From contig OX597815.1 in assembly GCA_951406725.2 (NCBI GenBank), positions 11,284,001 through 11,348,000 of the forward strand: a DNA stretch of 64,000 nt, in the 5' to 3' direction. This DNA is from Octopus vulgaris (Eukaryota). The notes beneath the pieces are model-generated. The model ran no database searches, was not told where the DNA came from, and worked only from the letters and a program-made list of their open reading frames with translations. The translations under genes were made by a program, and so were the position numbers. How positions within the stretch are numbered: the stretch's first letter is position 1; each line of letters starts with the position of its first letter. Shown here piece after piece: positions 6,672 through 7,182 of the stretch.

Positions 6672-6680
<9 letters not shown>

Positions 6681-7182
6681 GATAAAAAATTTTCGAAAAA
6701 ATTTTATCAATGGCCAGCATATTAAAAAAATACCTTTAAAGGTTAAATTTTATAAACAACTTATAAACAAGGGCAAAAAAGAAAAAAAAATCTAATGCCA
6801 AATATGCCGAAATATAGACTTATTCCTCAATAACCATATAATTTATCACTATAAGCACGTGTCTCGAAAGCAAGCCGATAGAAATTTCTAAAAAAAATTC
6901 GTTATTATCAGGTCTGTCCCAATTTCTGAGTTAATTCATTTAGAATTTTCTCCTCATCAGCGATAAATTCGTATTTATCGCTGATGACGAGAAAATTCTA
7001 AATGAATTAACTCAGAAATTGGTACCGATCCGGTAATTACGAAATTGTTTTAGAAATTTCTATCGGCTTGCTTTCAAGACACGTGCTTATAGTGATAAAT
7101 TATATGGTTATTGACGAATAAGTCTATATTTCGGCATATTTGGCATTAGAATTTTTTTGTTTTGCCCTTGTTTATAAGTTGT
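6672..7182. mobile_element. Non-coding fold-back element (~210-bp arms, 6756-6968 and ~6973-7182) with an HHR in each arm and a one-sided ~85-nt tail; flanked by TA tracts
   Basis: Arms are near-perfect reverse complements centred at ~6970 (CGATAAAT-TCGT-ATTTATCG). (TA)n lies on both sides. Confidence 0.85.
6975..7036 (+). ncRNA. Type I hammerhead ribozyme, canonical core
   Basis: UUAUCG-CUGAUGA-C GAG AA AAUUC UAAAU GAAUU AA CUC A-GAAA-UUGGUACCGA-UC-CGGUAA. Stem I is 6 bp, stem III is the near-palindrome AUUGGUACCGAU, and AUC cleavage is predicted after C7030. The opposite-arm copy (minus strand, ~6905-6966) has a mutated cleavage site. Confidence 0.8.

What the first reader, a model, noticed from the sequence alone, without database searches (positions are those of the whole stretch)
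6672..7182. ORF-less 430-bp hairpin made of two back-to-back hammerheads
Seen: the fold-back centre lies only ~10 nt from each CUGAUGA, so the element is two divergent HHR-plus-3'-tail units with a one-sided 85-nt extension. This is the same architecture as the adjacent large PLE but with no coding loop. The plus-strand HHR is intact and the minus-strand one has mutations at the cleavage site. Inference: it looks like a MITE but is more likely a retro-product starting next to the ribozyme. A read-through transcript would form ~200 bp of dsRNA that sequesters the ribozyme.
Basis: partly seen in the sequence, partly recalled or inferred. Interest (0 to 1): 0.72.

Follow-up and report, generated by a model that had tools for sequence, protein, structure and literature searches.

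The report
Stump-sized inverted Penelope retroelement insertion
This 427-base mirror-image sequence with a ribozyme motif in each half is one locus of an abundant repeat family and is most likely a cut-down, head-to-head insertion of a Penelope-like jumping gene's end, an arrangement already described for that class, rather than a new self-copying hairpin element.

Summary
In detail: arms 6756-6968 and 6973-7182 (13 substitutions, 3 gap columns in 213), a 4-nt loop, CUGAUGA 8 nt from the loop on each strand, an 84-nt extension on the left only, (TA)n on both sides, no ORF. The plus strand folds as a type I hammerhead with a palindromic stem III; the minus copy has lost its cleavage triplet. 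Contigs of four public DNA runs show an abundant family. The extension is its deepest-covered part and is continuous with the arm. Other copies run on past the centre into non-palindromic sequence, and six other inversion junctions lie elsewhere. This fits a one-off 5'-truncated copy plus inverted partner of a Penelope-like element end, not a MITE or a fixed palindromic unit. Inverted copies, one-sided tails and opposite-strand hammerhead pairs are in print. The parent RT gene was not found, and the large neighbour shares the layout but no sequence. Residual interest: a long tail; four of six other inverted copies start 5-14 nt upstream of the ribozyme core; one run has the same left arm but a more diverged right arm. 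The scan noted similar elements before in other genomes.

The parts
6608..6671 (.). (TA)n microsatellite, left flank, presumed insertion target
   Evidence: sequence
6672..6755 (-). One-sided extension ('tail'), 84 nt; outer end uncertain by about 8 nt; 3' end of the family in ribozyme orientation
   Evidence: deepest bins 6698-6733 and contigs continuous from tail into arm in all 4 runs (tables 2 and 8)
6756..6968 (-). Tail-bearing copy of the element end, truncated 8-13 nt upstream of the hammerhead core
   Evidence: loose ends behind 6968 and 6973 in other copies (table 7)
6898..6968 (-). Broken type I hammerhead (core starts 6960; U16.1 changed to C at 6912, stem III damaged); the family majority keeps the triplet
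   Evidence: 6912 G>A in 97-100% of depth in the 4 runs (table 3)
6969..6972 (.). 4-nt fold-back loop; the junction could lie anywhere in 6968-6974 because family variants explain these letters from either side
6968..7043 (+). Type I hammerhead motif: stem I 6968-6980/7031-7043, core CTGATGA 6981-6987, two-part stem II, GAAA 7015-7018, palindromic stem III, predicted cut after 7030; cleavage untested
6973..7182 (+). Inverted partner copy, without tail
7183..7201 (.). (TA)n microsatellite, right flank
   Evidence: sequence

Best explanation
The locus is an inverted repeat whose two arms are copies of the end of an abundant hammerhead-bearing repeat family, and it is most likely a single stump-sized insertion of a Penelope-like element (PLE), built head-to-head during integration into a (TA)n tract. 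Shown: the arms, the loop, the one-sided extension, the family's abundance, the extension being part of the family, other copies continuing past the centre, and other inversion junctions elsewhere. Inferred from published PLE work: an RT/GIY-YIG protein encoded elsewhere nicked AT-rich DNA and began reverse transcription at the outer of two start sites, giving tail plus arm. Synthesis stopped about 10 nt upstream of the ribozyme core. The second copy was then made in the opposite direction (snap-back or template switch) and ended at the inner start site, so it has no tail. The tail-bearing copy later lost its cleavage triplet. Predicted: a read-through RNA forms about 210 bp of duplex in which neither ribozyme folds, so the copy is inert apart from possibly feeding small-RNA pathways.
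For: Family: 1685, 2332, 1045 and 2837 contigs laid in runs X1-X4. Depth ratio of tail bin 6710-6721 to core bin 6950-6961 is 81, 50, 79 and 53. Tail and arm lie on one contig in all 4 runs (table 8 records 1-6, 9-11, 17, 24). Loose ends behind 6968/6973 in X1, X2 and X3 are non-palindromic and, read in ribozyme orientation, contain a splice-donor-like GTAAGT about 35 nt upstream of the core (table 7; reading it as an intron is inference). Six of the 15 joints shown read as inversions at other places (6729/6868, 6729/6965, 6743/6969, 6744/6969, 6812/6971, 6869/6971), each one contig per run, at depths like ordinary listed contigs. In table 8 this centre is spanned only by X3 record 19 (depth 8.63). 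Family variants at 6921 and 6916 keep stem III pairing (table 3). Both arms share five minority alleles. Literature: inverted 5'-truncated copy, one-sided 30-40 bp tail and microsatellite bias (PMC8557442); palindromes at inverted junctions (PMC3846280); type I hammerheads in pLTRs with palindromic stem III, a nucleotide between 9 and 10.1, and opposite-strand pairs 100-700 bp apart (PMC4209133); tail as the span between two RT start sites (PMC11167929). A PLE with this layout sits directly to the left.
Against: No RT or endonuclease gene is linked to this family; the database searches found nothing and no genome is held. The tail is 84 nt, not 30-40, and no PLE-like reading frame follows the ribozyme, whereas Penelope/Poseidon pLTRs include the ORF start. 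The tool warns that summed contig depth is not copy number, and the gradient also reflects how well this copy matches the family. In X2 and X4 depth at 6974-6997 is as high as or higher than at 6962-6973. I read that as ribozyme-core contigs placed on the right arm, but it does not exclude further copies with this centre. Tables were cut: 15 of 20 joints and 32 of about 8,000 pieces shown. A target-site duplication cannot be read inside (TA)n.
Confidence: 0.84

Rival explanations
1. The whole palindrome is a self-propagating non-autonomous unit with a fixed centre, copied as one piece by PLE machinery.
For: Four of six other inverted copies start 5-14 nt upstream of the core, close to this centre. 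Depth right of the centre is high in X2 and X4.
Against: The partner halves of those junctions end at different places (6729, 6744, about 6833, 6869). Other copies continue into non-palindromic sequence (table 7). In X3 depth right of the centre is 28-36 against 825 at the core, about four times the depth of the one contig that spans it.
Confidence: 0.06
2. An ordinary truncated copy was later duplicated in inverted form at the DNA level (fold-back repair or a replication error), independent of retrotransposition.
For: Near-zero spacer; arms share five minority alleles; no target-site duplication is readable.
Against: The inverted arm stops where the tail begins and runs into (TA)n rather than copying the tail and left flank. 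Several other contigs also begin or end at 6749-6759 (table 8), and two unrelated neighbours show the same arm-plus-tail layout.
Confidence: 0.06
3. A palindromic MITE of a TA-targeting DNA transposon (6756-7182), with the extension an unrelated neighbour.
For: Short, non-coding, AT-rich, long inverted arms, TA flank on the right.
Against: The extension is continuous with the arm in all 4 runs and is the deepest-covered part. The family continues beyond the centre. The left arm end is not flanked by TA. The ribozyme is kept in the family consensus.
Confidence: 0.03

Closest known systems
Insertion structure of endonuclease-bearing Penelope-like elements: inverted 5'-truncated copy plus one-sided tail (PMC8557442, passages; PMC3846280, passages)
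   Same: Head-to-head inverted copies, palindromic junction, tail at one end only, microsatellite target, strong 3' bias.
   Different: No coding remnant; tail 84 nt rather than 30-40; parent ORF not identified.
Type I hammerheads of metazoan PLE pLTRs, including opposite-strand pairs in Schistosoma mansoni (PMC4209133, parts 1-2 of 4)
   Same: Type I topology, extra nucleotide after A9, G10.1-C11.1, long stem II, palindromic stem III suited to a dimer; two motifs on opposite strands.
   Different: Cores only 20 nt apart (reported pairs about 100-700 bp); stem I 12-13 bp (4-6 there); an extra A before GAAA, not mentioned in the parts read (supplementary figures not seen).
Poseidon element of Anolis (PMC11167929, parts 1-2 of 4)
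   Same: Tail explained by two RT start sites downstream of the ribozyme; AT-rich target; no sign that the cut site defines ends (none of the six junctions shown is at the cut site).
   Different: There the ORF starts inside the ribozyme; here no ORF follows it.
Animal non-LTR retrozymes (bioRxiv 10.64898/2026.07.22.740005, part 1 of 5)
   Same: Non-coding, type I hammerhead, proposed to derive from pLTRs.
   Different: Retrozymes are defined by head-to-tail tandem units; this locus is a head-to-head pair, and none of the 15 joints shown goes back as a tandem would.

Membership tests
Penelope-like element (EN+) | RT plus GIY-YIG ORF in the element or its parent | tested here: inconclusive
Penelope-like element (EN+) | Type I hammerhead in the terminal repeat | tested here: met
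   Descriptor hit, 0 of 20,000 shuffles; family keeps the triplet and stem III pairing. Activity untested; Rfam gives no match.
Penelope-like element (EN+) | Inverted 5'-truncated copy joined head-to-head, junction varying between copies | tested here: met
   This locus plus six other junctions among 15 shown.
Penelope-like element (EN+) | One-sided tail that belongs to the element | tested here: met
   84 nt, continuous with the arm in 4 of 4 runs; longer than the published 30-40 bp.
Penelope-like element (EN+) | Strong 5' truncation | tested here: met
   Depth ratio tail to core 50-81 in 4 of 4 runs; contig depth is only a rough proxy.
Penelope-like element (EN+) | Target-site duplication of variable length | tested here: inconclusive
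   Both ends lie in (TA)n.
Penelope-like element (EN+) | Spliceosomal intron near the ribozyme | tested here: inconclusive
   Donor-like motif about 35 nt upstream of the core in loose ends of other copies; no RNA laid.
MITE / non-autonomous TIR transposon | Inverted repeats at both element ends, fixed ends | tested here: not met
   One end carries an 84-nt family extension; the family continues past the centre.
MITE / non-autonomous TIR transposon | Ends shared with a DNA transposase family | not testable with these tools
   No genome or repeat library held.
Non-LTR retrozyme | At least two head-to-tail units each with a hammerhead | tested here: not met
   Head-to-head pair, no further copy in the window; other loci of the family not excluded.
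microRNA precursor | Match to a family at curated score; defined small-RNA product | tested here: not met
   Best hit 47.4 bits against a cut-off of 95, driven by generic hairpin shape; small RNAs not examined.

The most novel reading that the evidence does not exclude
The family is a non-coding parasite of PLEs whose copied RNA begins at a preferred point 5-14 nt upstream of a variant hammerhead (long stem I, extra A before GAAA, 84-nt tail). Insertions therefore rebuild ribozyme-centred palindromes again and again, each silencing its own ribozyme and able to supply double-stranded RNA against the family. That would show where PLE templates start in vivo and that the cut site does not define it.
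Probability: 0.25. Interest if true: 0.5.

Novelty: new member of a known kind. Interest (0 to 1): 0.25.

Why it matters
As it stands this is a minimal example of a known insertion layout. Its practical value is annotation: such stumps look like MITEs or microRNA hairpins and are probably retro-products. If the clustering of inverted-copy starts just upstream of the ribozyme core holds genome-wide, it would bear on an open question, how PLEs make their inverted ends and what the hammerhead is for, and would give a short substrate for testing it.

Tried and rejected
Whole genome: none held. Rfam: 0 hits at gathering score in 64 kb; 98 weak hits in 1500-8500, none a hammerhead. Exact-pattern scans found 0 stretches: ribozyme pattern in metagenome and viral contigs; tail pattern in metagenome, prokaryote-genome and viral contigs. 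Related-locus searches with P0001, a relative of the neighbour's protein: 0 of 67 and 0 of 10 candidates confirmed. Sequencing runs: no RNA holder listed; no RNA run was laid; small-share rows X8-X24 are not used. No tRNA gene in the window. Earlier notes: nothing for this genome or look-alike stretches, nothing for the long word list, two unrelated hits by sequence. PMC5785218 is not held; its dimer claim is known to me only through passages of PMC6466107. A search on long-read errors at palindromes gave a listing only and is not used. Rejected: same family as the large neighbour (no similarity); junction at the ribozyme cut site (centre is about 60 nt from it; 0 of 6 other junctions shown are there); a coding remnant.

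Full report
Observation. Between two (TA)n tracts lies an inverted repeat with arms 6756-6968 and 6973-7182 and a 4-nt loop. The arms differ by 13 substitutions and 3 gap columns in 213. The region folds at -298.1 kcal/mol; 0 of 100 shuffles fold as well. The left arm runs on for 84 nt (6672-6755) without a partner. No stop-free frame within the element reaches 40 codons.

Ribozymes. CTGATGA starts at 6981 (+) and 6960 (-). My strict type I descriptor gave one hit on both strands of the window, at 6981, and 0 of 20,000 approximate dinucleotide shuffles of 6961-7182 gave any. Stem I has 12 pairs in 13, stem II has 3+5 pairs, and the predicted cut follows AUC at 7030. Stem III is a palindrome that pairs at about 0.04 in the monomer but forms a 12-bp duplex between two molecules (-14.8 kcal/mol). 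There is one unpaired nucleotide after A9, as described for PLE hammerheads (PMC4209133), and an extra A before GAAA that I did not see in the parts read. The minus copy has C in place of U16.1. Rfam detects neither. In the whole element all three stems have pairing probability 0.000; stem I is also 0.000 when the RNA starts at 6950, and 0.17-0.26 for the right arm alone. Sequestration is therefore supported by computation only.

Family. No genome is held, so I laid contigs of the four best-holding of 24 listed runs (four organism labels) on 6662-7005 at 80% likeness. Between 1045 and 2837 contigs were laid per run. Summed depth peaks in the extension and is 50-81 times the depth at the ribozyme core; the tool warns this is not copy number. 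Contigs run from extension into arm in all four runs, so the extension is the family's end. At six sites where the arms differ and family data are shown, the right arm has the majority letter, so the family keeps the cleavage triplet and the left arm lost it. Variants at 6921 and 6916 keep stem III paired.

Is the centre fixed? Loose ends behind 6968 and 6973 in X1, X2 and X3 continue into non-palindromic sequence that holds a donor-like GTAAGT about 35 nt upstream of the core. Of 15 joints shown (20 found), I read six as inversions: two flagged as opposite strands (6729/6868, 6729/6965) and four that jump onto the right arm (6743/6969, 6744/6969, 6812/6971, 6869/6971). The other nine are same-strand skips that I could not interpret. 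Each joint is one contig per run. Among the 32 pieces shown of about 8,000, only X3 record 19 spans this centre. Against this reading, depth right of the centre is high in X2 and X4; I attribute it to core contigs placed on the right arm but cannot exclude more copies with this centre.

Where inverted copies start. Relative to the first base of the core, the six start at -5, -10, -10, -12 to -14, about -40 and +92; this locus is at -7 to -12. A rough binomial gives about 1e-3 after allowing for the choice of window, but the table is cut, the core aligns more easily than other parts, and the test is post hoc. None starts at the cut site. This agrees with unchecked notes on other genomes, which are not independent support.

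An unexplained point. X3 record 19 matches 6840-6987 with 0 differences. Its other arm has the same length and gap count as the window's right arm but differs from the left arm by 25 substitutions against 14 (Fisher p = 0.003 for 0 of 148 against 11 of 199). X3 holds 0.31 of the sampled words, near the 0.25 expected from the left arm alone and far from 0.65 for both arms. In the window 8 of 13 arm differences fall in 25 nt (p about 0.0007). The window's right arm may have been made more like the left by gene conversion or by assembly polishing, or X3's arm diverged or was mis-joined. The intact look of the plus ribozyme beyond 6987 thus rests on the window alone, although the family majority has the same triplet.

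Context. Directly to the left, 1766-6610 is a PLE with the same layout: arms 97% alike, a loop encoding an RT end and a GIY-YIG domain (PF01541, E 4.7e-5) preceded by CxxxxCxxC, which points to the Neptune/Nematis type (PMC8557442), and a tail of about 38 nt. Its relatives are 350-770 aa proteins, many with an RT domain; named ones are mostly from molluscs (28 hits of 1214 candidates), so the host is probably a mollusc (inference). It shares no sequence with the element and I found no convincing hammerhead in it.

Mechanism. Inferred from published work: nicking of AT-rich DNA, reverse transcription from the outer of two start sites (tail; PMC11167929), a stop about 10 nt upstream of the core, and synthesis of the opposite copy by snap-back or template switch (self-priming proposed in PMC3846280), ending at the inner site. 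Inverted Penelope copies giving siRNAs is reported for transformed Drosophila (PMC3681739); nothing was tested here.

What is known. Papers as seen: PMC8557442, PMC3846280, PMC3681739 and PMC6466107 as passages; PMC11167929 and PMC4209133 as parts 1-2 of 4; bioRxiv 10.64898/2026.07.22.740005 as part 1 of 5. No supplements were read; those of PMC4209133 and PMC8557442 may hold this ribozyme variant or family. Searches listed no paper on this particular family, but the library is partial and I could not search repeat databases.

Verdict. A real feature and a new member of a known kind: it works like a PLE end insertion with confidence about 0.84, while formal membership lacks the link to an RT gene. 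Interest 0.25.

Noticed in passing
window 1766-6610: 5'-truncated Neptune-like PLE on the minus strand (RT end plus GIY-YIG at 3929-4766, apparently frameshifted near 4500) with a 1.9-kb inverted copy of its microsatellite-rich 3' region and a tail of about 38 nt at 1766-1803; no convincing hammerhead found.
   Followed up: partly
window 7925-8380: A third, unrelated fold-back element in (TA)n: 157-nt arms 98% alike, 87-nt loop, extension of about 55 nt on the right, and a hammerhead-like core on the minus strand at 8085 lacking A9 and a clear stem I; the loop has a branch-point-like TACTAAC before an AG on the plus strand.
   Followed up: partly
window 1766-8380: Three unrelated arm-plus-tail insertions lie side by side, each bounded by (TA)n, suggesting repeated targeting of the same microsatellites.
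   Followed up: no
window 7197-7860: Older palindromic repeat: 7557-7846 folds back with 71% alike arms, and 7197-7332 is a partial copy.
   Followed up: no
run X3, record 19, against window 6840-7186: Same left arm and centre with 0 differences but a right arm more diverged than the window's; gene conversion, assembly homogenisation or a mis-joined contig.
   Followed up: partly
window 61875: Decayed hammerhead-like core (6-bp stem II, GAAA changed to AAAA) next to (ATT)n repeats, from another repeat family.
   Followed up: no
window 47527-48612: Two copies of a 400-nt dispersed repeat (also at 33650-34060 and 42460-42870) in inverted orientation, 90% alike.
   Followed up: no
window 16865-17472: About three tandem 184-nt units of a dispersed repeat with partial copies at 12155, 30800, 42170, 43791, 57600 and 63395.
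   Followed up: no
table 5: Three same-strand joints start at 6748-6751, at the tail/arm boundary, and resume at 6827, 6830 and 6871; letters between not known.
   Followed up: no
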